From: Antedon mediterranea
Lineage: Eukaryota > Animalia > Echinodermata
Length of the DNA stretch: 64,000 bases
Assembly (NCBI RefSeq): GCF_964355755.1
Contig: NC_092673.1
Coordinates: 28,145,648-28,209,647 of the forward strand
Direction of reading: 5' to 3'
The notes under the pieces were generated by a model that saw only the letters and a program-made list of their open reading frames with translations, searched no databases and was not told the DNA's origin. The translations under genes and the position numbers were made by a program. This document shows positions 27,038 through 62,169 of this stretch, piece by piece (the stretch's first letter is position 1; each line of letters begins with the position of its first letter).

Positions 27038-28318
27038 TTCCAACAAAATTAAATTAAATATATTAACAAACAATTAAATGTAAATGAAAATATTCTATAT
27101 TTATACCATTACTAGCTAGTCTAGGCCTATATTCTGCTGTCGTTGCTTACATGACAGCCAACCTGAGTGGCCGACCTCGTCCCGCGGTAGGTAGTTCAAG
27201 AACAAAAGTTTTTAAGGCTAGATAATAATAAATAGAGGCCTATAGGCCTAGCTAGCCTAGCCAGCTTCTTAGCTAGACTTTTAATATCTCCAAAACCTGA
27301 TGATGGATGTGTCGCAATCCTTCAGGTTTATATTTCATCACGTCTAAACAGACTTCGGAATATTCGTCGTAGGTTGTTTGGTGAAATAAAACCCAAACTC
27401 TACAGTAAAAATTAATCTATCTTTTCTAGGCTAGGCCTCCGTTTTTGACAGCGAAGTTACTGAAAACTTTTCTTCCGTCTTTTCCGCTTGAGCAAACACA
27501 ATGAGCCTAGAGAGGGCGCACTTCAATTTATTACCATCTTCACACAATTAACAAAGCAGTATGTATTGTTCATTGAAACAATATATCTGCTGGTTCCAAA
27601 ATATTTCTGTTGAATTTATTTTTCACTAAGCTAACCCATACTTCCTTAACGTTTATTGATTCCACATAAAACTGAGAAATATCTCCCAATTTTGTTTCTA
27701 AAATATGTTGGATACAGTACTATATATGTAAAAAGTGATCACATAACTGTGACGATTTTTTGAGAAATATGACGATTCTTGATCTTATAAATGTATTATA
27801 CAACTGTATTGTGATGATGGAAAACTTGGGTGGGGGAGGTGAGGGTACTTGAACGCTGTCGTGTTTCTTCAAACTAACAGATCCAATTGGTACATTTGTA
27901 TAACCATGTAGCATCACATTTGATATGGTGTTTGGTTTTCTTTGAATTTGTTTACCACTAAGATGCAACACAATATTGTAACGCAAATTGATTTGGCCAA
28001 TCACAAGTGATGGATCATTCAAATTGTCGCTCGTGATTGGTCTACTTGCTTGCGTTGCATCCTAGTGGGAACCAAGCTTTAGAGTTTTAATGTCTAATAC
28101 TTTAATAACTACTTTTACAAACATACGGAACAAACAATATATGTTTACATTTCTGCTTTATTTGTCAGATTGTGCAGTTCACACTTGTATTAAATTTAAA
28201 GATAGTTTTGTATGTATGTTATATTTAGTAAGGCTTCATTTTTAATTGCCTCACATCGTGATCACATCAGTGTGTCTGTACCAAGTGGTGGTCCTTATTT
28301 ATAGTTTATTTTGTTTGT

Positions 28319-36600: not shown

Positions 36601-38628
36601 AAGTCTCATTTGAGGCTTAGGGAGTGACGTTGAAAGAGTTCCAGCGTTTTAAACCTTTTGGATTGGAAGGCAAGCATGTTAACCACCAAACTACAGCTCC
36701 ATTCAATTGTAACATGAAATTCCTTTATTTTCAGATATTGGGAGACGATGCTTGAGATGTTATGGCCACGGTTTCAGTACATACTTGAGTTGAATATTGC
36801 CAATATCCGAGATACAGACCCCCAAAAACTAGGATCAGTGGATTATCGACCTCATTATGTAAGCCTACAAGTGAAAGTTAATTAATCATTAAACTCTGTC
36901 TACACTATCAAACTTGATGTTACAAAAAAATGTGATTTTCCCATATATGATCATGATGATGTCATATCACTCCCACATCATTACCATCACACATTTTTTT
37001 GTCAAACTAGTTTGATAGTGTAGTCAGAGCTTTACTGTATTATGGTGTCCCAGTTAAACACTGTATTATATTTGTTTAAATCGTATTATCCAGTATATGA
37101 TCAAGTTCTGGCTGGTCTGGGTACCTCAAAATTATGAGGTGGGATTATACTCAGATTGCAATAACAATGGAATTGACCAAATTCTTGTTTCCATATTTAG
37201 CCTAGATTAATACTAAATCAAACCCTGTCAGACAGTCCTTACATTTTCCAATTTCAAAAGCATTTGAAAATGCAATGGCACTTTTACTGTTGTTTTGGTG
37301 ACATTTTTTGGAACAGATCACACGACGTTACGCAGAATTCTCTGGCGCCCTTGTAAGTCTAAATGAAACATTCCCAGATGAGCGTGTGAACCAGTGTCTG
37401 GCACGGTTACAAATGGAAGTTGAAAACTTCATTCTACGTCTTGCAGCCGAGTTCCCTCAACGCAAGGAACAACTCATCTTCCTGATTAATAATTATGATA
37501 TGATGCTTTCTGTTATAACGGTGAGTAGGTTTTTATTGAAAATGATAATGATACTAACAACATCATTATTAAATTTACCTTTTAAGTTGACTGGTTAAGT
37601 TGACAACCCTGGCACTAGATCAGGATTGAACCCTGGCACTAGGTCAGGATTGAACCCTGGACGTTGTGATTTAAGGCCACCAAGCTACAGCCCCACTACA
37701 ATACTCCTACATTACTTGTACACAAATCCTATTTTTAAATAGACAATAAGTTAACTCTACTCCTAAGTTTCAAGTGAGACTTGGTAAACACGATAAATTA
37801 TGTACTGTATTATAAAATGTGCCTTTGAATACGTATGAAATTTTTTTAAATTAATGAATTAACTTTATAGGAGCGTACATCCGAAGACTCTAGAGAAGGT
37901 GAAAGTTTCCGAAAGCTTCTGCAGGAGCGAACACAGGAATTCATTGAAGAAGTTTTAAGTCCGTACTTTGGAGGCATGATGACTTTTGTCAAAGAAGCCG
38001 AGAGTGCCGTTGAGAAGGGTCAAGCCGATCAAATGAAATACCAGGAACGTAAGTTTTATGTGAATACAGTAATGTCAGCCTAAAAATAATATTACAGTAG
38101 TTCATTCTTATATAGTGTATATAAGAAAGCTCTTAATGCGCTGCACATTATTACCATGGTCATTTTTTTTATCAAACACGTATGGAAACCTACTCCCATA
38201 ATGCAGCTAGTAATCAGCACAACGTTGTGTCTTGACCTAACGTTGTGTCTTGACCTAACCCAGTACCCATACCCTCACAAGTGTGGTAGCTTGACTTTAC
38301 TAAAGTGTAACTGGCTAGTAAGCGGTTTAGATAATTAATAAACAAACATCTTTATTTTTTAGAGAGAATTCAGAAGTTAGTAAGAGATTTCGTGGCCGAG
38401 TGGAAGCAAGCGATTGAAAACGTGAATCAGGAAGTAATGAAGTCTTTCACTAACTTCAAAAATGGCACCAGTATTTTGCAGGGCGCCCTCACTCAACTAA
38501 TTCAGTACTATCATCGATTCAAGGAAGTGCTATCAAAGCCGCCATTTAAAACGATGGCCGTACGAAGTCAACTCATAAATATTCATCACATCATGGTCGA
38601 AGTGAAGAAATATAAGCCTAACTTTTAA
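30693..38628 (+). CDS. VPS52: Vacuolar protein sorting-associated protein 52 (GARP/EARP subunit); ~16 coding exons
   Basis: Exons at ~30693-30713, 31072-31200, 31637-31712, 32549-32616, 32913-33088, 33521-33671, 34183-34283, 34502-34634, 34903-34960, 35289-35421, 36011-36166, 36333-36451, 36735-36858, 37317-37520, 37871-38048 and 38363-38628. They encode GVDLRQYSKQIE, IASLHNQITACD, RPHYITRRYAEFS, FLINNYD and C-terminal MVEVKKYKPNF*. Confidence 0.95.
31713..32548 (+). other. U12-type (minor spliceosome) GT-AG intron in VPS52
   Basis: 5' splice site GTATCCTT. Branch-site-like TTCCTCAAC lies ~15 nt before the AG, with no polypyrimidine tract between them. Splicing here restores ...IQD-Y-IKES. 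Confidence 0.85.
31733..32358. mobile_element. Non-autonomous TTAA-targeting DNA transposon (Kolobok-like AG...CT ends)
   Basis: TTAA on both sides; imperfect TIR agaccccttccct / agggaatggggct. Confidence 0.6.
33170..33380 (+). mobile_element. SINE-like repeat, family shared with 48662-48900
   Basis: Shared motifs ggttatgatgct.ggctacca, aactccactcccaaagact and ttgccacctttaa..ggatagtgaatgaattcac. Confidence 0.65.
33905..34060 (+). mobile_element. tRNA-derived SINE head
   Basis: Pol III A box tggtctagagg and B box ggttcgagtcc, without an intact cloverleaf. Confidence 0.55.
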
Positions 38629-38642
38629 TGAACACGCCCCTT

Positions 38643-38773
38643 AAGCTCTGTCTACACTATCAAACTGTATGTGACAAAAATAATGACAACACTACCATTT
38701 TTTTAAGCATATCACTACCATATATGGGCACATCACACTTTTTTGTCACACGTGTGATAGTGTAGACAGAGCT
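38643..38773. mobile_element. Representative of a high-copy ~130-165 bp MITE family (about 18 copies in the window)
   Basis: TIR aagctctgtctacactatca(aac) / (gttt)gatagtgtagacagagctt, with internal ~20-bp tandem atatcactaccatatttggg. Other copies at ~5531, 23059, 28649, 33724, 34975, 35782, 36891, 42255, 42673, 43562, 44223, 48299, 49158, 55032, 57430, 58109 and 62020. Confidence 0.9.
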
Positions 38774-40187
38774 TTATCACTAATTCACATTCCAACGGGT
38801 AGAAGGTAAAAACTCGAATTTTGTAAAGTGAAATTGTTGGGCTTTGTGGGTTGAATTCCTGATGGCTACTTTATACTATGTCACTAGATAGTTAAGCCGT
38901 TTTTTATCGTTGTGCGGTGGTTTCACGAAATACACTGATACACAATGCTTTATTACCTGGGATTTTGAAAGTCTATACACAAGCCTCACCCTTCAAGACA
39001 CTAATGACTCCATCCATTCAAAATGCATGCAAACTCTTAAATTTAAACGAAATTATATCTTACCAAATTAAATGAACAGTTCTGATTGGTTGTGCAAGAC
39101 CAGAAATTGAATGAATGTACTGTACATACCCATAAACTGACATTATTCAAATTACCTGCGAGTAAACTTCACCATGTCCATTCAGTTTATACAACCAATC
39201 GCCACCACCATACTAAGTTGTATATGTCTACATTTCTTTGGTAAACATTACCATTGTATTGTAAAATTATGGTATAAATGTGCTAATATTATGTATAATT
39301 ATGTATTTATTGTTATATACAGGTATTTCAATTCTATTGCATACAGTAAATAAAATCCCAGAATAGTGAATGTTATGTTATTATTTTTTATTAGTTTTTA
39401 TGACATTGTTTATACATTTTTACTAGGCCTAAATACATTTTTACTTGCTATCCCTTTCACATCGCCTTGTACACACCAGGGAATCCACTGCCAAGCAATG
39501 AGAACAAAATCTGTTAATATGGCTCTACATTCCCTCCTGCCCCAATAAAGTTGCAGCGTAACATTTATCATTTAAAATATACAGTATGCAGATACCAGTT
39601 GCAGGCCTAACAATTTTTAGTTTTGTTACTCAAGCCTGAAACGATAAAAAATTCAATCAAATCTAGGGATTATTTGTTTGTAATTCATCAATATTTCAAT
39701 TGGAATTAAAGTAATGCATAAATGAGTTTTCTATAACACCCACTTTTTATTATCGTCTGTTTGGGCAACATAACACTTTGTTAGCATTTTATGAACAAGT
39801 GATCATTTTTGACTAGGACAACAGAGGAGGGCACTTCGAACACATAAATACATTATTAACTTTTCCAAAACCTGGAGATGGAAACTGAACACAAATTACT
39901 GTTTTAGGAATACGAAGTCATATAAAAATGTTAAAGTAAAGGTATAATATATATTTAATACTGTATGTTCATCAAGATCCCCCCCCCCCCCACCACCATC
40001 ATTTGTCAATTTTCTTTGCCTTATATATATTTAAATAACTGTATACACATTGTTTTTTCAACTGCATACAAATAATGGTGTCAAAATTAACACCTAAATC
40101 TATAATACTGCTAAACCCAAACAATAATCTTTTGTCTGTAATTACTCAACTGCAAAAATATTTTGTGCTATTATTGATATTATTTTG

Positions 40188-43100
40188 TCATATTACATTT
40201 TTTTCTATTAACGGTGTACCATCCCATAGTCTGTCAAAGCCCATTTTAGTTAAATCTATGGAAACCGTGCAGCCATTTATTATAAGTTCTGTAACCGCTT
40301 GACCAACGGCCGGAGACTGTTGGATGCCATGACCGCTAAACCCTGTTGCTACCACCAAATTCGGGTAAGCTGGGTGATAACCAATAATACCATTTTGGTC
40401 AAAAGTGTTGTAATCATAATATCCCGCCCAAGCATTTTTAATCTGTGAAAAAGAATGAAGATTCCATGTTTAATTAACTTTATTTTCTGTGAAACCCTAC
40501 AAAGCATTCATACTATAGTATAGTACTAGTTGTAAACTTAAAGATGTATTGTCCCCCAAAAACATGAACATTTGAAGATTAATTTTAAATAAGACTTTGC
40601 ATAGGGGATTTTGTAGAAAAAAAAATAATGCTTGCACTTATTATATGGTTAAATTCAACCAAGATCCCATTGGCTGGCAGCAAATTTTACTATTTTTTGC
40701 TTTAAATTACATTTTTTTCGGGGAAATAGACTTTTTTTTCAATCCAATTTTTGGTCAAAGTGGATGATTTGATTGCATATTAAACAACAAAATTATTTCT
40801 TTCAGGGGGACAATACATCATTAAGCATGAATTTAGACTGTCAAATATATTTAACATTCATCAAATACAAATGAAAAGTATACTTACTTTAAGACATTCA
40901 AATGCTTTAACCCGATTGGCCAGATTTGGCCAAATCTGGTCGTTAAACCATTCATAATCAACTGACAAGTCTTCACAGCTAGGCTCCTGGTCCTGTTGTT
41001 AATATAAAAAAGACTATTAAGCATTGTGCATGTGTTAATTTTGTAAAGGCCTTTCAGGAAAACCAGAAGTTTTGGACCATCCTGAGACTTGGTTCCCACG
41101 ACGTGGGTGCAACACAAAAATGATCCATGGCGATTATTCACATTACTGAATATCACCTATGTTATATATGCAATTCATTCATTACAGTTTATACATTTAC
41201 CATACTTATTCGAATATATGCCCGGGGGAATTTACTGTTCAGGAGGGTTCTTATGGGGGGGGGGGGGCGTTTTCTCGAGGTAGGCATTCATTGGGAGGGA
41301 GGTGTTTATTTTTTTGGGTGTAAATAAATAAAGGCTCTGTGGCGTTTAATCAAAATGATGTTCTATGGGGAAGAGGGAGGGGGCGTTTATTCGGTGGTGG
41401 TGTTTATTTGAATAATACGGTATTTATCGTTAGATTATGACAGAACATTACCTCTGGAGGACTTTTTCCCGCTATATACATTCCTCCGAATCCTTCCCGT
41501 CGGAAATAAGATCCATCCGGCATTATAACAAATGGACAATCTAAAGTAGGGCCCTCTGGAGCATGGCACACATAGACATAGCGTTTTCGTGGTTCCACTG
41601 GGATCATTAAATCCAATAAACCATCTGCAGGGCCGCATCCGATGTCCGCCAACATTCCAACTTCTTTTGAGGTAGGACCAGCGGCCATGACAACATATGA
41701 ACAATTTACAACATTTGTTTCTGGACTGTTTAACATTCGAACCTACAAAAAAGTCACAGTTCAAAATAAAATGGACAGCCCATTCTTGGTACGGTATCTA
41801 TTTCCGAAGTATCATAGAAATATTTGGTAATACAACATCACATGTATCTAGTATTAGCCAAACCCTTAACCTAACATGATACAGGCAGTACATGTGATAT
41901 AAATGAGATTCTGTATTACCAAATATTCCTTTGATTCTTCGGAAATAGTATGTGGAGATACAGCACTAGGAATCGGGTGAGATGGGAAGAAGTTGTTCAC
42001 AAAAAATAGTAATATGTATTAATTACACTCACCTTGACGCCAGTGATCCTACGACCGCATCCTCCATATGCCATACTTTCATTTGGCTTCACCTCACTAT
42101 ACTGAAACCCGCTGACCTCACCGTCTACGTATTTAGCTCCAAGGGAAATAGCTTTTTTACGAAAGGCGGACAGCAATGACCACGGATCAAACCAACCTTC
42201 ATTCTCATAACCTAGAACAAAAATTATCAAATTCACTTTACATTTTACTTTCCTAAGCTCTGTCTACACTATCAAACTTTATGACAAAAAAATGTGATGG
42301 GCCTATATGGACATGATGATGTCATATCACTACCATATTTGACCATATCACACTTTTTTTGTAAAATTAGTTCAATAGTGCAGACAGGTTAATACTTTTT
42401 AGTTTTCCTTATTTTTTATACTGGGTGACCTCTCTCTCCCATTTATGATCAGTAGCTGTTAGTGACATACCATATGAGGCAAGCGCTATATCATCTGTGT
42501 TCATCCATGGGTGCCTTTCCTTAAGCATTGTTGGTGATAACAACTCAACTTTTGCTCCTAATTCCCTGAAATATACAAATAAATTTCACACAATCAATTT
42601 ATAATAATATAATACTGTACTAGCAAAAGTTCAAGAAGTATACTTCATGTATCAGACAGAAAATCTCATCAAAAGCTCTGTCTACACTATCAAGCTTTAT
42701 GCGACAAAAAAATGTGATGTGCCCATATATTTTATTTCATACTAGACAGAGCTTTAGTCCATAATACTAATACTAATTTAATTTCATTTTTTTATTATTT
42801 TGTACACAAAAGTAAGAAACTTGCTAAATATAGGATGAATAAACTAAAATTTACCGGTCATATAAACTAATAAAGTCTCATTTGAGGCTTAGGGGATGGT
42901 GTAGAAAGAGGCATGAACTTTGACACCCTTTCATGAGAAACGTAGTACAGGGAGAAAGTATCCTTTTCAGACCTCAAAATTTGGAGAGAGAAAAACGAAA
43001 TATCACAAGGTTTTATGAAACCATGTAAAACTCTAGGGTGCTATGATACTATGTCGAGAAAGGTTGAAAATGCATTATTTCACATAATAATGAATAAATT

Positions 43101-45045
43101 TATCAAAAACGTTATGGACCAATATTAGTAGGTGTTTTCTACTCTCAAATTATTAATTATACATTATAAGGGTATTTTATTTGTATATTTTATATTACCG
43201 TATATATTACTAAAAATCTTGAGAAATTGTATTTTAGAGAAAGAGCGAGAGATGACACAAATAATCATGACAGTTGATAGTCTGCCTTTGTAATTTGAAT
43301 ACTTTACTTGCTGACCTTTGTATTTTGTGATTTTCCTGCAGGATATGTGCCCCTCGTTCCGTGGCAAGAAACAAGTAGCCATGCTCATTGAACTGAACGT
43401 CTGGTGGGTCTTCATCCGCCACACACAAATTCTCTTTAATATTATGTAAGAACTCAGCACTATACATTGACATCTGTATGTTCTCTGCATTTGAAAACTG
43501 TTGACGTATGCCACCAGCTGCCAGTGTGCTTGCACACCTAGTGTACTAAAACAAATGAGTAAACTCTGTCTACACTATCAAAATGTGATGTGCCCATATA
43601 TGGACATGATGATGTCATATCACTACCGTATTTGGTTATATCACTACCATATTTGGGCACATCATTTTGTCAAACTATTTTGATATTGTAGACATTCATA
43701 CTACTGTACTAGCAAGTATACCTTCCCCAGAGTGTGATTAAAGAAATTCAAGAGTTTTGAGATTTTACCTTGACCTTTAACGACCTAACAAATGCAAGAT
43801 CGTCCAAGTTTGAAGACTAGTCTCTGAATAAAGCCGGACAGATACGCAGAGATTTAGTGAATTATAGCATTTATAAACATTTTGTAGAAAAGTTTTCTGG
43901 ATTATTAAAGATCTTTTAACTTGATTTGATGCAAAAAAAGGTTATGAGTTACTCTTGGACAAGTTTTATTAAAGTAAGTCTGACCTTTATCTCAATACAA
44001 ATTAAATTGACAAAAACTACTGTACTTGTGAAGCGGAAAGAAGCTATTGTATAAAAGAAGTCAATATTTAGAAATCAAGGCCCCTTGTGGTTAATCAATG
44101 CAGACTGTTTATTGTGCAAGACAAGGAGAGTGGTAGGTAGAGAAATTAAATACAATCTTTTGTTACCTCCGAGAAGTTAAAAGGTAGATCAGTTTTGTGC
44201 GAGTTTCTTTATTTGTTAGTTAAATTCTGTCTACACTATCAAACGTTATGTGACAACAAAAATGCGATGTGCCCACATGTTATAGGACATGATAACACAT
44301 CATTACAATATTTGGGCATATCACTACCATATTTGGGCACATCACATTTTGTTGACACATAAAGTTTAATAGTGTAGACAGCTGAGCTTTAGAAGGATTA
44401 CTCAAAAAGTTTTTGCCAGATTTTCATAAGATTTTAAAGAATGGTTTCATACCTCTCTATAATATAGTCTATAGACTTGATTAGAATATTGAACAGATGG
44501 TAAATAAAATATTAAAGATGTATTAACCCTAAAAAAACATGAAAAATGAAGGTTAAAGAAATCAGACTTTGAATAGGCCATTTTGCATTATTCACTTCTT
44601 TTTCGATCCAATTTTTTTATCAAACTATTATTATGTGACATTAATAAATGGCATATTAAAAAAAAACTTGAAAACAATAGATTTAATCGTTACAAAAAAA
44701 AAGTTCCTGCAATAAATTTAAATATTTAAATAAAAATACACAAACCTGTGAATCTTTCTCAACAACCAGAACAGACATGTTATAATTGTGTTTCTTTAAA
44801 AAGTATGCTATGCTAGAACCCATCACCGCACCACCGATAACCACAACGTCCACATCAGGGGGAGGTCGATTGTTATGCGGCGAGTCAGTGTTCAGACTCC
44901 TCGTCCTTGTTAGGCCTAGGCCTAGACAATTACGGTGCCTAGAACCGATAAAAGAACCGGATACATGTTTACGCAAACTTATGCTTATCGTTTGTTCTAC
45001 TGCAGCATTACCAAATAGTCTTGGAAATAGCCGAATAGTGGCCAT
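40188..45045 (-). CDS. FOXRED1: FAD-dependent oxidoreductase domain-containing protein 1 (complex I assembly factor); 7 exons
   Basis: Exons ~45045-44746, 43545-43316, 42565-42471, 42211-42033, 41741-41452, 40992-40888 and 40443-40188. Arg-rich mitochondrial-type presequence, Rossmann VVVIGGAVMGSS, GGIRQQFS, NEGWFDPWSLL, PVEPRKRYVY, AWAGYYDYNTFDQNG and GFSGHGIQQSPAVG. Confidence 0.93.
40542..40820. mobile_element. TTAA-flanked MITE (Kolobok-like) in a FOXRED1 intron
   Basis: TTAA|agatgtattgtccccc ... gggggacaatacatca|TTAA. Confidence 0.7.
41198..41421. mobile_element. MITE with G-rich internal repeats
   Basis: Imperfect TIR taccatacttattcgaata / tatttgaataatacggta with repeated ggggcgtttatt. 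Confidence 0.5.
41799..41947. mobile_element. Foldback MITE
   Basis: Arms tatttccgaag...aatatttggtaataca / tgtattaccaaatatt...cttcggaaata, with central aacccttaacctaac. Confidence 0.6.
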
Positions 45046-45824
45046 TGAAATAAATTAACAACCAACAACAGTGCACAGTTGTTCAATTATCACGACTGGT
45101 CCATACTGGATTTGTTTTTATATAAAAACATAGTAAACAAAAAAAACAGTAAACAAACTTCCCTCGTATGATATGATAATCATCTCGACCAGGGAGTTGC
45201 ATCGACCATGTGGCAACCTCTTCTTCTTGAAGGACGGACAGACCTAGCCTAGGCCTAGTTCGTACCATAAGTACGATTTTTAATACGGGTACCCTTTTTG
45301 CGAAGGCGAACCCGACACACAAAATGAAAGTTGACTAAAAGAAAATATAATTATGAATTTTGCCTACTTGCAAATATTATTATTGGATCCATTACTATTA
45401 TTATTAGTTTCCACATTTTTACAGATTCATGTAAGCCGCGCACATGTGGTGGTTGCGCAATCAATCAACGCAAAAGTAGTACGAATCGAATTATTTTACT
45501 GTATTATAGAGGGCAGCAGTAAAAAAAATGAAATTAAAAACCGAAGTTGGACGGATAAATTGCGTTCACACTTAAGGTTACTGACGCAATTGTAACGCGC
45601 TACGACATTAGGGAGAATGATTAGGGAGGAAGAAAAGAAGGATCGGGTTCGGAAGATATAGTAGTGTGAGCGAGCCGCATGGTTTTTTCTTTAGCGATTA
45701 TATTGTTCATATGGTAGGCTTAAACGTAAGTAAATTACAAAATCCATTTACTAATATGTACACCTTATATGCTTAATAAAGGATTTGTGTAATGACCGAA
45801 ATATTTTTACTTGCTTAGATAAAA

Positions 45825-48800
45825 ATGAACAGCAAAAGTTGGGCCGATCAAGTCGAAGAGGAACGACGTAAGTAGACCGAGCAGACTGGCCTTCTGCCGT
45901 TGGCCAACTGTGTTTTGTTGGTTGGCTTGTGCTTATACTTCGCTTTGTTTGAACCTAATTCTAATGACGTTACTTTATTTACCTTTTTATTTGATATTTA
46001 ATAACCTAGGCCTATAGGCTATGATGTGGACTAATTAATCATATTTATAAAAAAAAATCTGTTTATTAGACGTTCCTCAAAATGAAGAAATAATTAAAGG
46101 AAACACAAAGAAATTGATTGAATACAGACGGGAAGAAAATGGAAAACTACAAAAGGTAAATTTATTTTATTTTTTTAATTGTTCAATACCTCAAACACAA
46201 CCTAAAAGAAATGATTTTAAAAGATTATTTCTTCTCTTGTATCTTGCATTATCTCTTGCATTCTCTTTAAGGAACACAGGTTTTATCCAAACAACTTTTT
46301 TTACTTGATTTACTTGATGTTGAGACTTATAAAGCCGAAGCTTGTGTGTCCCTCGACGTGTTCCTATATATTATCTTGTCTACTATAGGGGGAAAACTTG
46401 CAGAAAGAAGTAGACAAGTGTTTTTCAAGCCTTGACTTGAACTGGTTGATTGAGTCAGATTCTATGACGGTTGACGGTAATTTGTTCCAGACATTGCATA
46501 GGTTTTGAGTAAAGAACTTTTGTCTAATTCTATTCTCTTGTATTTATTTTATTTTAGGTTATACGAACCTTCAATATAGAACAAAGAAAAGCTTCTAAAA
46601 CGGTTGCAACAAGAAAGGTAACTATTTAATCTATCTTCAATTGACAATACGCAAGACAAATGAAGTAACGAGTGAGTGGCTAAAGAGTGGAGACCGTGAA
46701 ACCATAATTATGTAGCCATAATATCGGCTAGGGTTCAAGGCTCACTCGCTCCATGGTTCTACCGGATAATCTTCTCGGATAATGACTATAAACCATAGGT
46801 CAAGTGTTCACATCTAGCTCATGTGCACTTTAAAGAACCTACTACATCTTTCGAGTAGGGGGTTACCCCGGTGTACTAGAACACACACAGCCACTCTTCA
46901 TAAGTGGGCGCTGGGAGAACAGTCTGTGACTGAAAAATCCACTCAGTATAAAGAATAAATAATAATACAATAAAAATATACACATAAAGTCTAAATACAA
47001 AATGAGTAGTATTATATGAATATGATATGATTTCTTGCAGGCTTGGCCTAAGTTTGGTTCAGCTAGCCAAGATGGTTCAGGACCTAACCCAGTTACAACT
47101 ACAATCTCTGACGATATCTTTATGCAGTTCATCACGGCCAAAGATGTAAGCCAGATAATTTTTGAAAATCCAATCAACAACATTTATTTAGAAAGACAGA
47201 TATCATCAAGATAAAGCTGCTTTCACATCACTGTCCAATCAGCAGTGAGCATGAATAACTACGCATGATAACGCATAACCGAATTTGTGGTCGATGTGAA
47301 AGCAGCTTAAATTGAAGAAAAAATACAGTAAATGAATGCCAATTGAATGGGATGGATTGACAAATATTTTGTGTTTATTTATAAAATTTATTCTTGTTTT
47401 CAGGAGTTGAATGCAACCAATGAGAATGATGACCCAATCAAGCGTATCGCCGCTGCGCAAAAGATGGTAATGTGCCGTGTCTGTAAAGGAGACCATTGGA
47501 CAACAAAATGTCCATATAAGGATACATTGGAACCACTGCAGAAGGAGCTAGCAGCAGCTGACAAGCCACCTGAGGAGAACGGAAGTAGGTTGGTCATCGG
47601 GGTGGGGTAGCCTAGGACCTAAACCATCTTTTTGTATTGCAATTTGGTTTGGATCTGCCTATGTTGCTAGTAGTGCATAACTTTATTATTAAATGATACT
47701 ATGTTGGTGGTTACATATTAAAAGATGTGTTAACAAAATGTATTTAACGTTTCTTTCAAGTTAATGTTTAACTAATGTTTATAATCTTATTTATTTGAAG
47801 CTGCCGAGCCTGGGTCTACTGGAGCCTCCACTGGCAAGTACATTCCACCTGGCAAGAGGAAGGGAGCAGAAGCAGCCAGAGGGGGTGATCGTGATAACAA
47901 AAGAGGTAAGATAAATGTTTCTAATCTAATGTATTAATTAAAACAGAATGCATGTTGTCCTTTGAAAATTGCTACATCCAGGGGGTCCAGGTGTAGGTAT
48001 ATCCAGGGGTTTAGGTCCATCCAGAGTTGTAGCTTTATCCAGGGTGTAAGTTTGTATCTTGGTGTGTAGAGCATTTTAGGCTTGTGTTAGGCAAGTTACA
48101 GTTTTGACCAAATAAAAAGGGTTAAATGAATACGGTTATTTTGTTAGATGATGGAGCAACTATTAGAGTTACCAATTTATCAGAAGACACCAGGGAGCCT
48201 GACCTTCAAGAATTATTCCGACCTTTTGGAGCAATTCAGAGGATATACCTCGCAATGGACAAAAATACAGGCATGTCAAAGGTAAATAAAAAAATCTAAA
48301 GCTCTGTCTACACTATCAAACGAATGTGATGTGACCATATATGGACATGTTGATGTCATATCACTACCATATTTGGGCTTATTTTTTTTTTTCAAACTAG
48401 TTTGATGGTGTAGACAGAGCTTTATACACTGTTGATATCAAATATTAAAACACTGAAAATAGTAAAACCCACATACAGTAATAATACAGATATCGTTTAT
48501 GGATACATTGTTAATATTTCAGGGATTTGCTTTTATTAATTTTCATCACCGAGAGGACGCCGCTCGAGCTATTGCTGGAGTCTCTGGTTATGGTTACGAT
48601 CATTTAATTCTGAAAGTTGAATGGGCAAAGTAAGTAGAAATCTTTGTAATACAGTATTTTTAGTTTAGTGGAGTTGAGGGTTGGTGGTTATGATGCTCGG
48701 CTACCAAACCAAGGGTCCTGGGTCCAAGTCCTGTCATGATTTTTTCTAATGACAATTTACAACTCCACTCCCAAAGACTAGTAATAAGACTTTGTTTATG

Positions 48801-54798: not shown

Positions 54799-56037
54799 TT
54801 AACTGGATAATCGTATGCACCAAGAATTCTTGGTGTCAAACCACGTGACTTGTGCGTGTTTCCCCAGACGGAGTATCCAAACTCAAGTAATACACGTATG
54901 AAACGCCATTATGTGCAAAAATATTTATATTTTTACTAATATTAAGACAAAACTCCGTCTGGAGCCCAGACTACTAATAATACAGTAGTTATTAAATTCT
55001 ATATTAAGCATTATGTTTTTGTACACACTAAAGCTCAGTCTTGACAAAAAAGTGATGTGCCCAAATGTTTCCCCCTATAATGTTGGATAGCGTAGACAGA
55101 GCTTTACAAATTGTTATGTAACACAGTGTAAAGGCTAATTTACAGACAAGCGGAAACCATTTACACAGAGCGTGTAATTTGTCTACAGTGTGCTACATAC
55201 ACATGCTGTACAGCTTTTATACATACATTGGTCAGTTAGTCCTATCTCATGGAAAAGGGTTTCTGCAAACATTTTGAGAATGTTTGCCACGTAACGTCGA
55301 CTGATCACGTTTGAAAACAAACTTCCCGTGTGTTTTGTATTTGTTGTCGATCGAACAAGGCTGACTCAATTTTTCAACTCGTGAAAAATTCTCAAATCAC
55401 TAGGAATGGAAGAATTATATAGATCTAGCAATACAGTACTGCAATTCTCGCTTGAACTCCTTGTGGTTGACCAGATAAAAGTGACACTTCTAAACAAGAG
55501 CAACACAAAAATATTACAAACTACAATCAAAATACAGTCTCTTTTTTACATTTTTTATTTCAAAATTGACAAATTCAACAGTGGCGCCACGTGAAGGCTT
55601 CAACATGGCCCCGGGGCTGGGAGTGACAAAAAGGCATTGCCTAAGAGTGCTTGTCGGCTGTTTTATTTCAATGCGTCAGGAATAGCATGGAAAAAGGGAA
55701 TAAACAATGCAAATGGAATGCTGGTGCTTGTATCTTGAACGTGGGGTGGGTGGCGCCAACATTATGTAGGCCTCTATATGTCACATTGGTGCAGGTTTAT
55801 TTATGCATTAGGCTTGCAGTATTATTCTACTACATTACAAGCTATCATATGTGTTTTCATATTTATACAAGGAAGGTTCTTGTTTTCATATTTATTTGAA
55901 TATACAACACTGCGGATAATATATCTGGAGTAGCCATCCCCACAACACAAACAGCAGCTTTCTACGAGTCTGTAAAATAAAATAAAAATATTAACTTCTC
56001 GTTATTTTATGGTTTTATATATAGTAGTAGTATTCTA

Positions 56038-56106
56038 AGACATCAGAACTAAGCGTTCTCTTCAACAAATTTCAGCGAGAGAGTTAAATGTTCTCATCAA
56101 ATGTCT
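56038..56106 (-). ncRNA. SNORD81: Box C/D snoRNA, SNORD81-like
   Basis: C box TTGATGA; D' guide TTTAACTCTCTCG-CTGA (complementary to 28S GAGAGAGUU); D box CTGA; terminal stem agacat/atgtct. It sits in the last intron, like U81 in GAS5. Confidence 0.75.
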
Positions 56107-56351
56107 TTCTGCAACAGAACAAGCATTTCGGATATAACAATTTGATCTACACTAAATTTACTAATTAATTAAACCACTGTTAAAATAGAATAAAAGATAT
56201 AGAAAATACTTGCCACCACAATTTCTTTTTTTTTAAGTCCTGGAAATAAACATGGTTTTTAAGCTCTGGAAAGAAAATGGATAAGATTATTTAATAATAT
56301 ATTTTATCGATCTACGTTATCAATCAAATCTGGTCTGCTTTAAGAGTTGAT

Positions 56352-56424
56352 TGACCTCAGTGAACGGAATGTTGCTATCATCGAATTACTCTTGATGGCA
56401 GAATTAGTTTTGCATCATTGGTCA
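56352..56424 (-). ncRNA. SNORD47: Box C/D snoRNA, SNORD47-like
   Basis: tgacc-AATGATG...ATTCTGCCA...CCGTTCA-CTGA-ggtca. It shares ACCAATGATG, ATTCTGCCA and CCGTTC with recalled U47; targets are 28S UGGCAGAAU / GAACGG. Confidence 0.75.
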
Positions 56425-56616
56425 AAGGGCAAACGCATCAATGCAAGTTATTACCTTAAACAATGCAGGTGAACAGCCAACAGTATCGTACACCTATCTG
56501 AAAAAAATCCAAATACAATATTACTGAATTGTTTTTATTTACATCACAAACCATACAATGAGCTAAAAGGATAAGTTATTCTCAATCCTAATAAAGAAAT
56601 CTATTTGACTTGTGTC

Positions 56617-56684
56617 TGCATCAGTCCACTACTTAAAATCTTCATTTATAATTCAGTGAGATTCCTCACATAGTCATCATTTGA
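56617..56684 (-). ncRNA. Box C/D snoRNA with SNORD79-like D' guide and SNORD75-like D guide
   Basis: ATGATGA...GGAATCTCA-CTGA...ATGAAGA...AAGTAGTGGA-CTGA. Guides are complementary to 28S GAGAUUCC and CCACUACU. Confidence 0.8.
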
Positions 56685-57540
56685 AGACACAAATCATTAT
56701 CAACACATAAATTAAATGGCAACTCCAGGTTAAAAAAGTTATAAACATTGGCAACAAGGATAATAACCCTGGTTTTTTTTTATTGCTAAAGTAAGCCCCT
56801 TTTTAAAAAGAAGTGCTGCTACAGAACTTCTTTCAAAATGTTGGTGCAAAGGTTACTAACTGTGGAAATAAATTATAAGCTGATTGTAAGCTGATTTAGC
56901 TTTGGATGAAGGGTTCAACATGGCCCCGGGGCTGGGAGGCATAGGGCATTGCCAAAGAGTGCTTGTTGGAATAAAACAGGACTGAATTGCATCAAAATTG
57001 AAATCACGGTGGTCGAAATGATACATTGATTTCGAACGATGGATTAATGATTATAGAAAATGACTATGCTGAAGGCTGTTCATGTGATCCCATACAAGAT
57101 TGATGTTGTAAAAGATGGACTGCTCTTTCAGCAATATAATAAAGTAACTATGACTCATGCATTCTGGAATCAGCTGGCCAGATGTAAACAAGAAAAAGGC
57201 AGAGTGAATGGCAGAGTATGAAATGAAAGAATGAGGCAGTTAATACCGGACAAGTTTGTACGTCAGCTGACAGAAAAGCTGTCTATTGCTGGTCAGATCG
57301 GAGCGGGACTGTTCTCAGTGTCGTTCCGGTGCAATCGAGAGCTTTTCTATCGTACCAATAAATGCTTGTTCATCTGAAACAAAAAAAGAATGCTTGGTAC
57401 AGATTGTGTTGAAATGTTTCAGATACACGTGTCTACACTATCAAACCAGTTTTGACATGCCCAAATATGGTAGTGATATGCCCAAATATGGTAGTGATAT
57501 GACATCATCGTGTCCATATATGGGCACATCACATAGTGAT

Positions 57541-57611
57541 TCACCTCAGGTTGCAAGATACATGTAATCATTCCTTTCATCTGGATCACTCAGATTGTTC
57601 ATCATTGGTGA
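57541..57611 (-). ncRNA. Box C/D snoRNA with 5.8S-complementary guide (SNORD71 paralogue-like)
   Basis: tcacc stem, ATGATGA, guide CTGAGTGATCCA (complementary to 5.8S UGGAUCACUCGG), D' ATGA, D CTGA, ggtga stem. Confidence 0.75.
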
Positions 57612-57894
57612 GTTTACAAGAAACTACATTGACCTATTACCTTAATGGAGATAAGCATGTATACTAACCTGGCTCAAAGATGGTGGTTACACCGTGCCAA
57701 CCAATAACATCACAAATCTGTAAAACATGTGGATGTTTTGTCAATATCAATTAATTATGTAAATTTGGTACTACTGGAAATATTATCAATACAAAAGGAA
57801 ACCGAACAAGCTAGCTAAATGCAGATTACTTCTACCAACTTACATTTTGTAAGCATAGATTTACATAGACAGGAACAAAAGAAAAACAACTTTT

Positions 57895-57966
57895 CATCTC
57901 AGATTCAGAAGAGAAATCATAAGATATCATTTAGTGGATCACTCTGATACAAAATCATCATCGATG
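57895..57966 (-). ncRNA. SNORD71: Box C/D snoRNA, SNORD71-like (5.8S Um14 guide)
   Basis: catc stem, ATGATGA, guide GAGTGATCCACTAA-ATGA, D box CTGA. The fifth nt upstream of D' pairs with U14 of 5.8S GGUGGAUCACUC. Confidence 0.7.
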
Positions 57967-58238
57967 CAATTAACATAACTGATTAAAGTTAGTTTACTTA
58001 CATGGTAACAATTAGTTTCTAAACCAACATGTAGATATATTCAGTATCTAGTCAATCTGAAAAAATAATTTTGTTAATTATACAGGTTATTAATATTGTA
58101 TTGGCCTAAAGCTCTGTCTAGACTATCAAACCAGTTTGAAAAAAAAGTGCGATGTGCCCAAATAGGGTAATGATATGCCCAAATATGGGAGCTGGTGATA
58201 TGACATTATCATGTCCATACATGGGCACAACAGCAAGT

Positions 58239-58310
58239 ACCTGCTCAGACTAAGTAAAGATGGTCACATATAAAATCCCTAGCAGCGATTCTTGAGTCAT
58301 CATAACAGGT
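58239..58310 (-). ncRNA. Box C/D snoRNA, target unassigned
   Basis: acctg...ATGATGA...CTGA...caggt: canonical C and D boxes and a 5-bp terminal stem in an intron of the host. Confidence 0.7.
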
Positions 58311-58537
58311 ATATTCTATAGGCAATTGTAGAATGAACATTTCATTGTTTAAAGGCCTATTGTTTCACCACTAGGAATACTTTATCTTAGGCGTGGAAAT
58401 CTTAAATCAATATTTAAAACGTACCTTTATGGATAGCTCAGTCGTACCAATTTCCCATTGTTCTGTAGAGAAATGAAAAATCCTTCATTTTCTTTGTTTA
58501 AATTGTTAAAAAATCTATTTTTTTTAATGGTTTGATT

Positions 58538-58608
58538 TGCCTCCGAGATCTTGGTGGTAGGGTACTATCACACAACAGTCAAAAGTAGCAATGTTTTCTT
58601 CCTCGGCA
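58538..58608 (-). ncRNA. SNORD76: SNORD76/SNORD24-like C/D snoRNA, copy 1 (variant boxes)
   Basis: Guides ATTGCTACT and CTACCACCAAGATCT are complementary to 28S AGAUCUUGGUGGUAGUAGCAA. Boxes AGGAAGA / CGGA; stem tgcc/ggca. Confidence 0.7.
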
Positions 58609-58640
58609 TATCTTTGTAAAAATGATCACAACACACCTTT

Positions 58641-58806
58641 AAGGCCAAGTTACACAGACGAGCAGCGTACCTTGCCCCACAGAGAATGTGCATCTAACCC
58701 GAGCATAAACCGCCTATCCAGTCTGCGTTGTGTGTAAATGATTATAAGGAATAACAGATTCTATTTTAGTATTACGGTTAACGCTTATCTGTGTAAATTG
58801 GCCTTT
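58641..58806. mobile_element. MITE in a snoRNA-host intron
   Basis: TIR aaggccaagttacacaga / tctgtgtaaattggcctt. Confidence 0.65.
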
Positions 58807-58993
58807 GTATGATAAAGGTAATCAGTGCTTAACTAGGACATTGTGATAACATAGTTTGATTCGTTATTCTAGAATGTGCTTTACCTTATATGGTATATAT
58901 TGGACACCAGCCGTTTCTGCTAAAATAAGAAATAATACAGATTAATAAAATATGAAAAGAACGTTTTTCTATGGATCAGCTGAATACAGATTT

Positions 58994-59071
58994 GCCACAT
59001 CAGGTCTACTACTATTGGTTGTTATAATCATTGTAAATCGTTTGTCCCTATCTAGTGTCATCATTTATGGC
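58994..59071 (-). ncRNA. SNORD74: Box C/D snoRNA, SNORD74-like
   Basis: ATGATGA, guide TAGATAGGGACA (complementary to 28S UGUCCCUAUCUA), D CTGA, stem gcca/tggc. Confidence 0.75.
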
Positions 59072-59477
59072 AAAATCTAATGATCTTTAAAGAAATTTCT
59101 GTAACTATCCTGCTGTAGAAGCAGTGTGAAACAGCATCTCTTTCAACAATCAACATATTTTGGAAGGAAAAGGGTCCTATTGAAACGAGATTATTTACTT
59201 ACCAAATTGTGGCAGTATCCAAATTTGCACTTGGTGAAACTATCCCCCGTCGGACACCATCTCGATGTTTCTAGAATAATAATTTTCATATTCAGGAAAT
59301 AATTTCGCCAGTGTAGCATAGCAAAAAGATATACAAAACAAACTTATTGCTACACATTTCTAAAATTGTGTAGAAAAAAATACAATACAAAATTATGTTT
59401 CTCAACTCAAAAATCAGTTTGATTAGCAATATTGATAAACAAAATTTTTCCATGATATGCTATTGATAAAATGAATT

Positions 59478-59554
59478 TGCATCAGATCGCCCTAGTTGAA
59501 GTCGTGGGTCAGTCACTGTCCATCAGACAATTTAGTCTTCAATCATCACTTGCA
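59478..59554 (-). ncRNA. Box C/D snoRNA copy 1 (18S CGCCCUAGUU guide; weak SNORD78-like element)
   Basis: tgca stem, GTGATGA, AAATTGTCTGA, AACTAGGGCG-AT-CTGA. Identical to 61173-61249. Confidence 0.75.
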
Positions 59555-60265
59555 AATTATAATATTAATTTATTGCATCCTTACCCATTATCAAAAGACA
59601 ATCTTGAGAAAGCAGACTTGTTGCCACGAAGCAGTGCCACCAAAAATGTATGCAAAATTCCGCCATCAGATACAACCAGCAAGTTGCGTTTAGGTTCATA
59701 ATTTTTCCTCAAACTTCACGCAATGACAGACAGCAATTTTCATTTCACTATGAAAAAATTTCCAAAAACAAATTGAATCAAAAAATAGTCAGCAATACTT
59801 ACACAGATACATATAATCAAACATATATAATTTTCAGTTGCATCAGTCCTATCGATCCAAAGTTAGTTTAATCATGTTACTCATGACTTTCTGATGTCAT
59901 CATTTGCAACAATATAATCTTTAAAAATAAATTAAAATAATAATTAAAATAAATTATTCTTACCACTTGGTGCGATTGCAATGTCCGTCTTACTCCTTAG
60001 TGAGACTTCCTGAAATTTATATAAAACCGAAACAATTCAACTATGTCATTCAACAGGAACAAAATGCTTACAAAAATACAGAACATAGTTTATAGGCATA
60101 TATATTCATTAGAAGGGGAGAAATAGGCTGTGCATATAATCAACAAATCTAGTTCATCCCAACTACATGCTATTTATTTCATGGGAATAGCTAACTGCAA
60201 GAAATTTGTGAGTAACTAATCAAATACATCTTTTTGTTAGATTAATTACAAAATGAAGGAAATAA

Positions 60266-60405
60266 AATTGTGTCGAACCGGGTGCCTGAAAAGCAGCGGA
60301 AATCTGCTATCAGCGAATATGGAAAGACTAGGGTTTAATGTCCGAGACTTTAAGCACCGGTCGTTTCATGTACGTTCGTATCAACGACAGTGACTCTAGA
60401 ATCGG
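60266..60405 (-). ncRNA. SNORA3: Box H/ACA snoRNA, SNORA3/SNORA45 (snR11)-like, copy 1
   Basis: Two hairpins, H box ACATTA, terminal ACA-NNN. The 5' pocket (CTAGAGTC / GCTTAA) pairs with 28S UUGAGC-UU-GACUCUAG; the 3' pocket (TATTC / CACC) pairs with 28S GGUG-UA-GAAUA. Confidence 0.75.
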
Positions 60406-60612
60406 TAAAGTTTTAAGTGTATGTCAATGTATTTAACTTACTTATTTTAAGTGCATGAATTGTTGCTGTGCATGTTCCAACACATTTAATGTAGGCATCA
60501 TCTAATAATGAAACGGTGCATTTTAACAAAAAGTTTATGAGAAACCGACAATAAATCTTTTAAATGAAGATTATGTACGTTCAAAACATTCAATCCAGAT
60601 ATATTTAGTACA

Positions 60613-60752
60613 AATTGTGTCGAACCGGGTGCCTGAAAAGCAGCGGATATCTGCCATCAGCGAATATGGAAAGACTGAGGTTTATTGTCCGAGACTTTAA
60701 GCACCGGTCGTTTCATGTACGTATGTATCAACGACAGTGACTCTAGAATCGG
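60613..60752 (-). ncRNA. SNORA3: Box H/ACA snoRNA, SNORA3-like, copy 2
   Basis: Near-identical to 60266-60405; H box ACAATA; pockets unchanged. Confidence 0.75.
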
Positions 60753-60920
60753 GACACAACATATATACCAGAAAAAACACAAAAATATCCATTTTACTTA
60801 CATACTTCCTTCATAGAACATCCATTCTGCAATTTAGTAAACCTACAAAAATTTAGATTTCAAAAGCTTAATTTTTATTTTTAAATGACATTTTTACTAA
60901 ATACATTTTATTTATTGATT

Positions 60921-60991
60921 TGCCTCCGAGATCTTGGTGGTAGGGTACTATCATACGACAGTCAAAAGTAGCAATGTTTTCTTCCTCGACA
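60921..60991 (-). ncRNA. SNORD76: SNORD76/SNORD24-like C/D snoRNA, copy 2
   Basis: Near-identical to 58538-58608, with the same guides and variant boxes. Confidence 0.7.
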
Positions 60992-61172
60992 AATCTTTGT
61001 AAAAATTAAAAATTGTCAAAAAAGTAAAAGCTTGCATACAAAACTAGAACATTTACCTCATTTCAATGGCCATATCATGCTACAACATCTCAAGTCCTAC
61101 AAAATAAAAAAAATAATTATAAACACAATGACAAATTTAAAATGTAAAGCAACTATCAACTTTCAATTTTTT

Positions 61173-61249
61173 TGCATCAGATCGCCCTAGTTGAAGTCGT
61201 GGGTCAGTCACTGTCCATCAGACAATTTAGTCTTCAATCATCACTTGCA
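61173..61249 (-). ncRNA. Box C/D snoRNA copy 2 (identical to 59478-59554)
   Basis: 77-nt identity confined to the snoRNA; GTGATGA/CTGA boxes and tgca stem. Confidence 0.75.
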
Positions 61250-62169
61250 AAAAATTAAACTTGAGTGGCACGCCTAATCGGTGATAGAAGCTATTGGAAT
61301 CTTTTGCCACTCCTTGGCGCAATCTAGCTATTTTGTCTTGTTTTGTATTAATGTGTTTTGGCAAAATAAATGAAATGATAAACAAAATATAACTTACTTT
61401 TCTTCTCAATAATATCTTGCCAAGTATCATATTTAGTGCCTAAAAAATGAAATAAAATAATTAACAAGAAATATTTCTTACAAAAAACGCCGCGTAACTT
61501 TTTGACTGGACAGTTGTTGTAAGAACAGTCTTCATTAATCTAATATAATAGGTCGGCCAATCAAAACGCAAGTGAACAATTGGGACTTTACTTGTGATTT
61601 ATGTCATTGGCCTGTCAGCACAGTCGTTTCTTTCTACTGTAGAATTAAACGCACAAATTTGTATTGGGAATAATGTATGTGGTTATTACTATCGCATTTA
61701 GGTATTGATAATAATAATAATATGGCTTTTGAATATATAATTACTGTCTGTAGAATAACATTTATACATTTTCGGTTCGCGATGAAAAGTTATATGAATG
61801 GATTTGTAATAGGTATTTATAATAATAGTATATGGGTTGTATTATTGCTAAGCTATCACCAAATCGCGTTATAACATTATTTCTCAGGGTTTTTTGCACC
61901 ATTGATCAATACCAAACGCGTATCGGTATTATAGTTTTTAATGAATCATTACATTAATAAAAATACCCAATTAAATCAATCGCGTCAGTCCAATTCCGAC
62001 TTATGTTTCGATCACATAGTTCTGTGTCTACACTGTCCCAACTAGTTTAACAAAAAAAGTGTGATGTGCCCAAATATGGTAGTGATATGCCCGATTATCG
62101 TAGTGATATGACATCATATTTAGTTTGATAGTATAGACAGAGCTTAAGGATTATATTTAAAAAATGTTT

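What the first reader, a model, noticed from the sequence alone, without database searches (positions are those of the whole stretch)
56617..56684. One snoRNA carries the guides of both human SNORD79 and SNORD75
Seen: D' guide GGAATCTCA and D guide AAGTAGTGGA in one RNA. Known (recalled): U79 uses GGGAATCTC (28S Am3809) and U75 uses AGTAGTGGA (28S Cm4032), and these are separate GAS5 introns in humans. Inference: an ancestral double guide later split by duplication and subfunctionalisation, or a lineage-specific fusion.
Basis: partly seen in the sequence, partly recalled or inferred. Interest (0 to 1): 0.7.

Follow-up and report, generated by a model that had tools for sequence, protein, structure and literature searches.

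The report
Feather-star snoRNA carrying two rRNA guides
A small RNA gene in a feather star carries, in one molecule, matches to two ribosomal-RNA methylation guides that vertebrates keep in separate genes (SNORD79 and SNORD75); it likely directs both marks, and such regrouping of guides is already known in other organisms.

Summary
On the minus strand at 56694-56608 lies a well-formed box C/D snoRNA gene of a crinoid (a neighbouring protein is 100% identical to an Antedon mediterranea record). It sits in an ORF-poor cluster of 12 C/D candidates that resembles GAS5. Its D' element pairs with the human SNORD79 site (A3809 at +5) and its D element with the SNORD75 site (C4032 at +5). Each gives 8 contiguous pairs against vertebrate rRNA; the chance is about 1e-5 per site. 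Human, chicken and zebrafish SNORD75 carry this guide before box D', not box D, so duplication plus degeneration alone cannot produce them. The U79-site guide also has other partners elsewhere (U74 site in plants, U3797-equivalent in Dictyostelium) or none (fly, Neurospora). Guide-half shuffling on the echinoderm side is more economical. Not shown: expression, crinoid 28S pairing, methylation, or any second species with this pairing. An 8-bp duplex failed in one in-vitro study. Merging and splitting of guides is published for chicken, zebrafish and fungi. The new part is this combination, plus a hint that Cm4032 guidance, tabulated so far only in vertebrates, predates them. Interest 0.3.

The parts
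56608..56694 (-). Box C/D snoRNA gene with terminal stem arms (SNORD79-type, two guide elements)
   Evidence: sequence; fold; Rfam SNORD79 33.9 bits over 56614-56688
56674..56680 (-). Box C (ATGATGA)
56657..56665 (-). D' antisense element, U79 type; predicted target is the 28S A3809 equivalent at +5
   Evidence: vertebrate SNORD79
56653..56656 (-). Box D' (CTGA)
56639..56645 (-). Box C' (ATGAAGA)
56625..56638 (-). D antisense element, U75 type (core 56633-56626); predicted target is the 28S C4032 equivalent at +5
   Evidence: vertebrate SNORD75
56621..56624 (-). Box D (CTGA)
55585..61250 (-). Inferred non-coding multi-snoRNA host region, GAS5-like: 12 C/D candidates, 2 H/ACA-like copies, longest ATG ORF 67 codons
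   Evidence: exon structure inferred from splice motifs only
58996..59070 (-). Neighbour: U74-type C/D unit
   Evidence: Rfam snoMe28S-Cm2645 and TtnuCD23, below gathering score; element shared with SNORD74
58538..58608 (-). Neighbour: U24/U76-type C/D unit (second copy at 60921-60991)
   Evidence: Rfam SNORD24 38.5 bits; compared by eye with SNORD76
56352..56424 (-). Neighbour: U47-type C/D unit
   Evidence: Rfam SNORD47 24.9 bits, E 0.041
56036..56108 (-). Neighbour: U81-type C/D unit
   Evidence: Rfam SNORD81 31.7 bits, E 7e-4

Best explanation
This is a box C/D snoRNA gene with two guide elements that is predicted to direct 2'-O-methylation at the crinoid equivalents of human 28S A3809 (via box D') and C4032 (via box D), and the pairing likely arose when a U75-type box-plus-guide half was moved into the 3' half of a U79-type RNA on the echinoderm side. 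Shown: the boxes, stem, both elements, their register against vertebrate rRNA, and the GAS5-like neighbours. Inferred from established C/D biology: release from an intron, loading of fibrillarin, NOP56, NOP58 and 15.5K (names recalled), and methylation opposite the fifth base upstream of each D/D' box, the two halves working independently. Inferred history: recombination between neighbouring snoRNA units of the duplicating cluster.
For: Both elements pair 8/8 in exact +5 register with sites guided from GAS5 in vertebrates. The match lies in a cluster that also holds U74-, U76-, U47- and U81-type units. The crinoid C'-to-D half equals the human SNORD75 C-to-D' half between the boxes except for a 2-nt gap and one extra T (by eye), and shares the unpaired A before the box. 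No other copy of the U75 element in front of a D-like box lies in the window, and no unit was found between the U74-type and U76-type units where vertebrates keep U75. The two halves of a C/D RNA are functionally independent and halfmers work (PMC7229835). The U79 element sits before D in plant snoR44 and before D' in animals, so slot changes happen. The cluster shows recent duplications of whole units.
Against: The crinoid 28S was not seen. Against human or zebrafish rRNA the D duplex is only 8 bp, versus 12-13 in zebrafish and chicken U75. An 8-bp substrate was not modified by reconstituted thermophile RNPs at 50-70 C. No expression or methylation data. No second species with this pairing was found, so the direction of the event is not fixed. 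Two neighbours (U74-type, U24/U76-type) look like retained old double guides, which makes retention plausible for this one too. The bases upstream of the core differ among human, chicken and zebrafish U75, so the extended likeness to human may be partly chance.
Confidence: 0.45

Rival explanations
1. Only the D' (U79) guide works. The D element is a chance likeness, a decayed remnant, or an accessory pairing that does not methylate C4032.
For: The duplex is 8 bp against vertebrate targets, and 8 bp failed in vitro. Cm4032 is listed only for human, mouse and Xenopus and is blank for fly, yeast, Arabidopsis and Dictyostelium (zebrafish also has it). An 8-nt match somewhere in about 6000 nt of rRNA has probability 0.06-0.13. 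Over about 24 elements of the cluster and about 110 known sites (round figure, recalled) the chance rises to about 0.06 (hand arithmetic). Non-functional and accessory elements are discussed in PMC8522698. An 11-nt identity to an unrelated chicken snoRNA, GGgCD53a, shows such likenesses occur (by eye).
Against: The match is to a GAS5-guided site, in exact register, inside a GAS5-like cluster: about 1-2e-4 per element for 11 sites, about 6e-3 over 24 elements (plus hand arithmetic). The clear U79 element also gives only 8 contiguous pairs against human rRNA, so crinoid rRNA may simply differ at position 10. Predicted duplexes of 7-15 bp are reported for mapped sites in Dictyostelium.
Confidence: 0.25
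2. The U79+U75 double guide is ancestral to deuterostomes. Vertebrate U75 arose by duplication plus a half swap (the C'-guide-D half became a C-guide-D' half), and vertebrate U79 lost its D guide.
For: Neighbouring units keep second elements that vertebrate orthologues lack or have degraded: the U74-type unit shares its D element with fly Me28S-Cm2645 and Tetrahymena TtnuCD23. A trend to single guides in vertebrates is proposed in PMC7668251 (83 of 86 single). U75 and U79 lie in one host gene in vertebrates.
Against: It needs a slot change on top of duplication and two losses. All three vertebrate U75 use D'. The plant snoR21 element that matches the same rRNA stretch one base shifted is also before D' (link to Arabidopsis Um2494 is my inference). 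The fly U79-type consensus has no such D element.
Confidence: 0.2
3. The crinoid lineage gained a C4032 guide independently by point mutation of the free D spacer of U79; the likeness to U75 reflects the shared target only.
For: Different slot from vertebrate U75; no Rfam SNORD75 match. Lineage-specific second guides are common in fungal families.
Against: A new guide hitting precisely a GAS5-guided nucleotide from within a GAS5-like cluster is unlikely without shared history.
Confidence: 0.1

Closest known systems
SNORD79 / U79 (Rfam RF00152; GAS5 intron in human, chicken, zebrafish); fly Me28S-A2634; Neurospora Nc CD14
   Same: Box C/D layout, D' element for the A3809-equivalent site, best Rfam match, GAS5-type neighbours.
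   Different: Score below the gathering cut-off; carries a second, U75-type element before box D that the human, chicken and zebrafish sequences and the fly consensus lack.
SNORD75 / U75 (GAS5 intron 2)
   Same: 8-nt core plus the unpaired A before the box; same +5 target C4032.
   Different: Element before D, not D'; shorter complementarity to vertebrate rRNA (8 vs 12-13); no Rfam match.
Merged or split guides: chicken GGgCD18 (= human U36A + U36C), zebrafish SNORD52/SNORD202, Neurospora CD5 (= yeast snR72 + snR78), plant snoR44 (U74 + U79 elements)
   Same: One RNA in one lineage holds guides that are separate genes in another; both fusion and split are discussed in print.
   Different: The U79 + U75 pairing was not found in the papers and Rfam alignments seen here, and it involves a D/D' slot difference.
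GAS5 (SNHG2) multi-snoRNA non-coding host gene
   Same: ORF-poor region with many snoRNA units; U74-, U76-, U79-, U47- and U81-type units in the human relative order.
   Different: No separate U75 and no clear U44, U77 or U78 unit; extra units not in GAS5; transcript, 5'TOP and flanking synteny not shown.

Membership tests
Box C/D snoRNA | Box C (RUGAUGA) and box D (CUGA) near the ends, closed by a terminal stem | tested here: met
Box C/D snoRNA | Internal C'/D' boxes with antisense elements upstream of D' and D | tested here: met
   D' is consensus, C' has one mismatch
Box C/D snoRNA | Lies in an intron of a host transcript | tested here: inconclusive
   Acceptor-like AGs 58 and 123 nt downstream of box D (56563, 56498); upstream donor not resolved; no spliced joint among the 15 of 227 joints shown
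Box C/D snoRNA | Expressed as a stable small RNA bound by core proteins | not testable with these tools
   Only contigs of runs not recorded as RNA were available
SNORD79 (RF00152) | D' element that places A3809 at +5 | tested here: met
   8 Watson-Crick pairs against the human sequence; crinoid rRNA not seen
SNORD79 (RF00152) | Rfam gathering score 47 bits | tested here: not met
   33.9 bits, E 2.1e-4; filed as U79-type functional homologue, not as a formal family member
SNORD75 | Element that places C4032 at +5 | tested here: met
   8 Watson-Crick pairs against the human sequence
SNORD75 | Element sits upstream of box D' | tested here: not met
   Crinoid element is upstream of box D; D' in human, chicken, zebrafish
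SNORD75 | Match to the Rfam family model | tested here: not met
   Not among 29 listed matches at E<=10
Double-guide C/D snoRNA | Both elements pair with the organism's own rRNA and both sites are methylated | not testable with these tools
   No crinoid 28S obtained; no methylation map
GAS5 orthologue | Non-coding host carrying the U74-U81 set | tested here: inconclusive
   Five types present in human relative order, all below Rfam gathering scores; longest ATG ORF 67 codons
GAS5 orthologue | 5'TOP start and conserved flanking genes | not tested
   Transcription start not mapped; flanking synteny not compared

The most novel reading that the evidence does not exclude
A GAS5-type snoRNA host and methylation of 28S C4032 both date to the last common ancestor of deuterostomes, and vertebrate SNORD75 was born from an ancestral U79/U75 double guide by a half swap that turned its C'-guide-D half into a C-guide-D' half, a traceable case of permutation of C/D snoRNA halves.
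Probability: 0.2. Interest if true: 0.5.

Novelty: new variant of a known kind. Interest (0 to 1): 0.3.

Why it matters
If the D guide works, a methylation tabulated so far only in vertebrates (Cm4032/4054) also exists in an echinoderm, and the GAS5 snoRNA set is older than vertebrates. The D versus D' difference gives a concrete case for testing whether C/D snoRNAs evolve by moving box-plus-guide halves, which a comparison of amphioxus, hemichordate and echinoderm genomes could settle. It does not change how snoRNAs are thought to work, and guide reshuffling is already documented.

Tried and rejected
Whole genome: none held, so a separate U75 elsewhere in this genome could not be sought. Rfam at gathering thresholds: 0 matches in the window. 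Homologue scans with double-guide or U79 patterns: viral contigs 0, GTDB contigs 0, metagenomes 2. Both metagenome hits were rejected as chance: no box C within one mismatch upstream, no Rfam match at the site, L002 reads as bacterial coding DNA by eye, and about 0.5-1 chance hits are expected per 1e11 bases. These collections hold little animal DNA, so the blanks say nothing about distribution. A eukaryotic 28S pattern found 0 loci in viral and GTDB contigs; paper searches for the 28S stretch or echinoderm LSU alignments (listings only) gave nothing usable. Sequencing runs: no RNA holder listed; run X1 is only guessed to be RNA, and its contigs showed no spliced joint among those displayed. 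A shared C' box with the SNORD79 consensus was considered as evidence of whole-length homology and dropped, because the U81-type neighbour has the same C'. My first C/D scan missed the query because of its stem rule. Literature searches for a prior report of this pairing or of an invertebrate GAS5 (listings, then the passages named in the full report) found none; the library lacks most subscription papers.

Full report
Organism and setting. The large exon at 25748-27061 is 100% identical over 95% of the query to a TRIM45-like protein recorded for Antedon mediterranea; the next hit is Anneissia japonica at 71%. The window is therefore from a feather star (crinoid echinoderm). No whole genome is held. 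The finding lies on the minus strand in a region (55.5-61.7 kb) whose longest ATG-started minus-strand frame is 67 codons.

The observation. The unit has box C at 56680-56674, a D' element ending at 56657, box D' 56656-56653, box C' 56645-56639, a D element 56638-56625 and box D 56624-56621. Folding closes it with a 10-pair terminal stem (z -1.99; 5 of 200 shuffles as good). Rfam finds nothing in the window at gathering thresholds. At E-value level the best match is SNORD79 (33.9 bits, cut-off 47, E 2.1e-4), with fly Me28S-Am2634 and sn2429 matching the same D' element; SNORD75 is not among the 29 listed. Contigs from 3 of 3 runs laid (2 samples, 2 studies; 3 of the 5 runs listed) cover the unit with no listed difference inside it.

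Targets. Human primers printed in PMC6856654 (passages) span both sites. The D' element pairs at positions 2-9 with A3809 at +5, plus three pairs beyond a bulged A (-17.0 kcal/mol). The D element pairs at positions 2-9 with C4032 at +5 (-12.5); swapped controls give -3.2 and -7.8. Chance of 8/8 in register is 9.5e-6 per site (2.1e-5 with G-U), about 1-2e-4 for 11 sites, 1-2e-3 for 110 sites, and 0.06-0.13 for anywhere in 6000 nt (site numbers are round figures of mine). 1 of 343 CTGA motifs in the window carries the element, and 24 of 5000 shuffles reach the energy. Over about 24 elements in the cluster this is about 6e-3 for GAS5-guided sites and about 0.06 for any known site (hand arithmetic). 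So the match is probably not chance, but that is not excluded. The crinoid 28S could not be obtained. Both elements mismatch human rRNA at position 10; the fly and sn2429 consensus lines share that A in the D' element, so invertebrate rRNA may pair there (inference).

Function, for and against. PMC7229835 (abstract, sections 15 and 16) shows the two halves of a C/D RNA act independently and halfmers work, but an 8-bp substrate was not modified by thermophile RNPs at 50-70 C. PMC8817022 (passages) gives predicted duplexes of 7-15 bp for mapped sites. PMC8522698 (passages) discusses non-functional and accessory antisense elements. Table S4 of PMC11014333 (supplement rows and one part; main-text passages) lists Am3809 in fly, human, Arabidopsis, Xenopus and Dictyostelium, but Cm4032 only in human, mouse and Xenopus. 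Zebrafish has it too (PMC7668251 supplement; 5 of 17 files not searched), and PMC8797249 supplement rows agree for Xenopus. Arabidopsis methylates the next base (Um2494). I put the chance that the D guide is active at about 0.75.

History. Human (supplementary file 6 of PMC6856654, read whole), chicken (PMC2653536 passages and supplement passages) and zebrafish all carry the U75 guide before box D'. The crinoid has it before box D. Duplication followed by loss of one guide per copy keeps slots, so it cannot by itself give vertebrate U75. Between the boxes, the crinoid C'-D half matches the human U75 C-D' half except for a 2-nt gap and one extra T (by eye), which suggests a box-plus-guide half moved; the bases upstream of the core vary among the three vertebrates, so part of this may be chance. 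The U79-site guide has changing partners: the U74 element in the plant snoR44 consensus, where it sits before D; Um2580 in Dictyostelium CD34; none listed in Neurospora CD14 (PMC2780460 passages) or fly. The plant snoR21 consensus carries a D' element matching the U75 stretch one base shifted. Parsimony favours one move on the echinoderm side (0.45) over an ancestral double guide plus duplication, slot change and two losses (0.2). Against that, the U74-type neighbour keeps a D element shared with fly and Tetrahymena RNAs, and the U24/U76-type neighbour has two elements, so this cluster does keep old double guides. Independent gain gets 0.1 and an inactive D element 0.25.

Host cluster. Twelve C/D candidates, two SNORA3-like copies and two copies of an unidentified element lie on the same strand. 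U74-, U76-, U79-, U47- and U81-type units follow the human GAS5 relative order (order), with an extra U76-type copy upstream; zebrafish gas5 has a different order, so order is labile. No unit was found between the U74- and U76-type units, the vertebrate U75 position, and no second U75 element before a D-like box occurs in the window. All family assignments are below Rfam cut-offs. Splicing and expression are inferred, not seen.

Comparison with what is known. Merged and split guides are published: chicken GGgCD18 equals human U36A plus U36C, zebrafish SNORD52/SNORD202 (section 12 of PMC7668251), Neurospora CD5 versus yeast snR72/snR78 with both fusion and split discussed (section 10), and fungal rearrangements (PMC5824354 passages). 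I found no report of a U79+U75 RNA or of an echinoderm GAS5 in searches (listings) or in passages of PMC8704543 and PMC5006418; the library lacks most subscription papers, and supplements of papers I did not open could bear on this. Homologue scans gave 0 hits in viral and GTDB contigs and 2 chance-like hits in metagenomes. Earlier AI notes mention an octopus GAS5-like pair and a fungal U79-type RNA with another second guide; these are unchecked leads, not support.

Verdict. A real, ordinary-looking box C/D snoRNA of U79 type with a probable second guide for the U75 site. It is a new combination within a known pattern; function and history are untested. Novelty: new variant of a known kind. 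Interest 0.3.

Noticed in passing
window 55585-61250, minus strand: GAS5-like non-coding snoRNA cluster in an echinoderm, with U74-, U76-, U79-, U47- and U81-type units in the human relative order; may be the more interesting finding.
   Followed up: partly
window 58538-58608 and 60921-60991, minus strand: Two U24/U76-type units with both guide elements but non-consensus boxes (box C reads GAGGAAGA, box D reads CGGA), the same in both copies.
   Followed up: no
window 58996-59070, minus strand: U74-type unit keeps a D element shared with fly Me28S-Cm2645 (two listed sites) and Tetrahymena TtnuCD23.
   Followed up: partly
window 56036-56108, minus strand: U81-type unit whose D element resembles that of plant snoR16: another possible double guide.
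   Followed up: no
window 57296-57333: 38-nt stretch shared with very high-depth contigs that run on into GC-rich sequence (28S-like by recall only). On the minus strand it lies in a strong hairpin (z -4.2) and ends at a CTGA; its 3' part resembles the U80-type D element. Could be an rDNA insert or an odd antisense RNA.
   Followed up: partly
window 57892-57968 and 57539-57612, minus strand: Two C/D units sharing a 10-nt element with zebrafish SNORD71 (by eye).
   Followed up: no
window 55592-55657 and 56907-56969: Two copies of a conserved two-block element 1.3 kb apart in the cluster, no Rfam match; possibly an H/ACA RNA.
   Followed up: partly
window 60265-60405 and 60612-60752; 59476-59556 and 61171-61251: Duplicated SNORA3-like units (95% alike) and duplicated C/D units (100% alike): recent copying inside the cluster.
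   Followed up: no
window about 13400-21000: Long repeat array, seen as recurring near-identical ORF translations.
   Followed up: no
window 31000-47600: Exons that read like VPS52, FOXRED1 and eIF3g (names recalled from the translations, not tested); TRIM45-like gene at 25745-27073.
   Followed up: no
Rfam consensus lines: Plant snoR21 matches the U75 target stretch shifted by one base, consistent with Arabidopsis Um2494 next to the human Cm4054 position; the link is my inference.
   Followed up: partly
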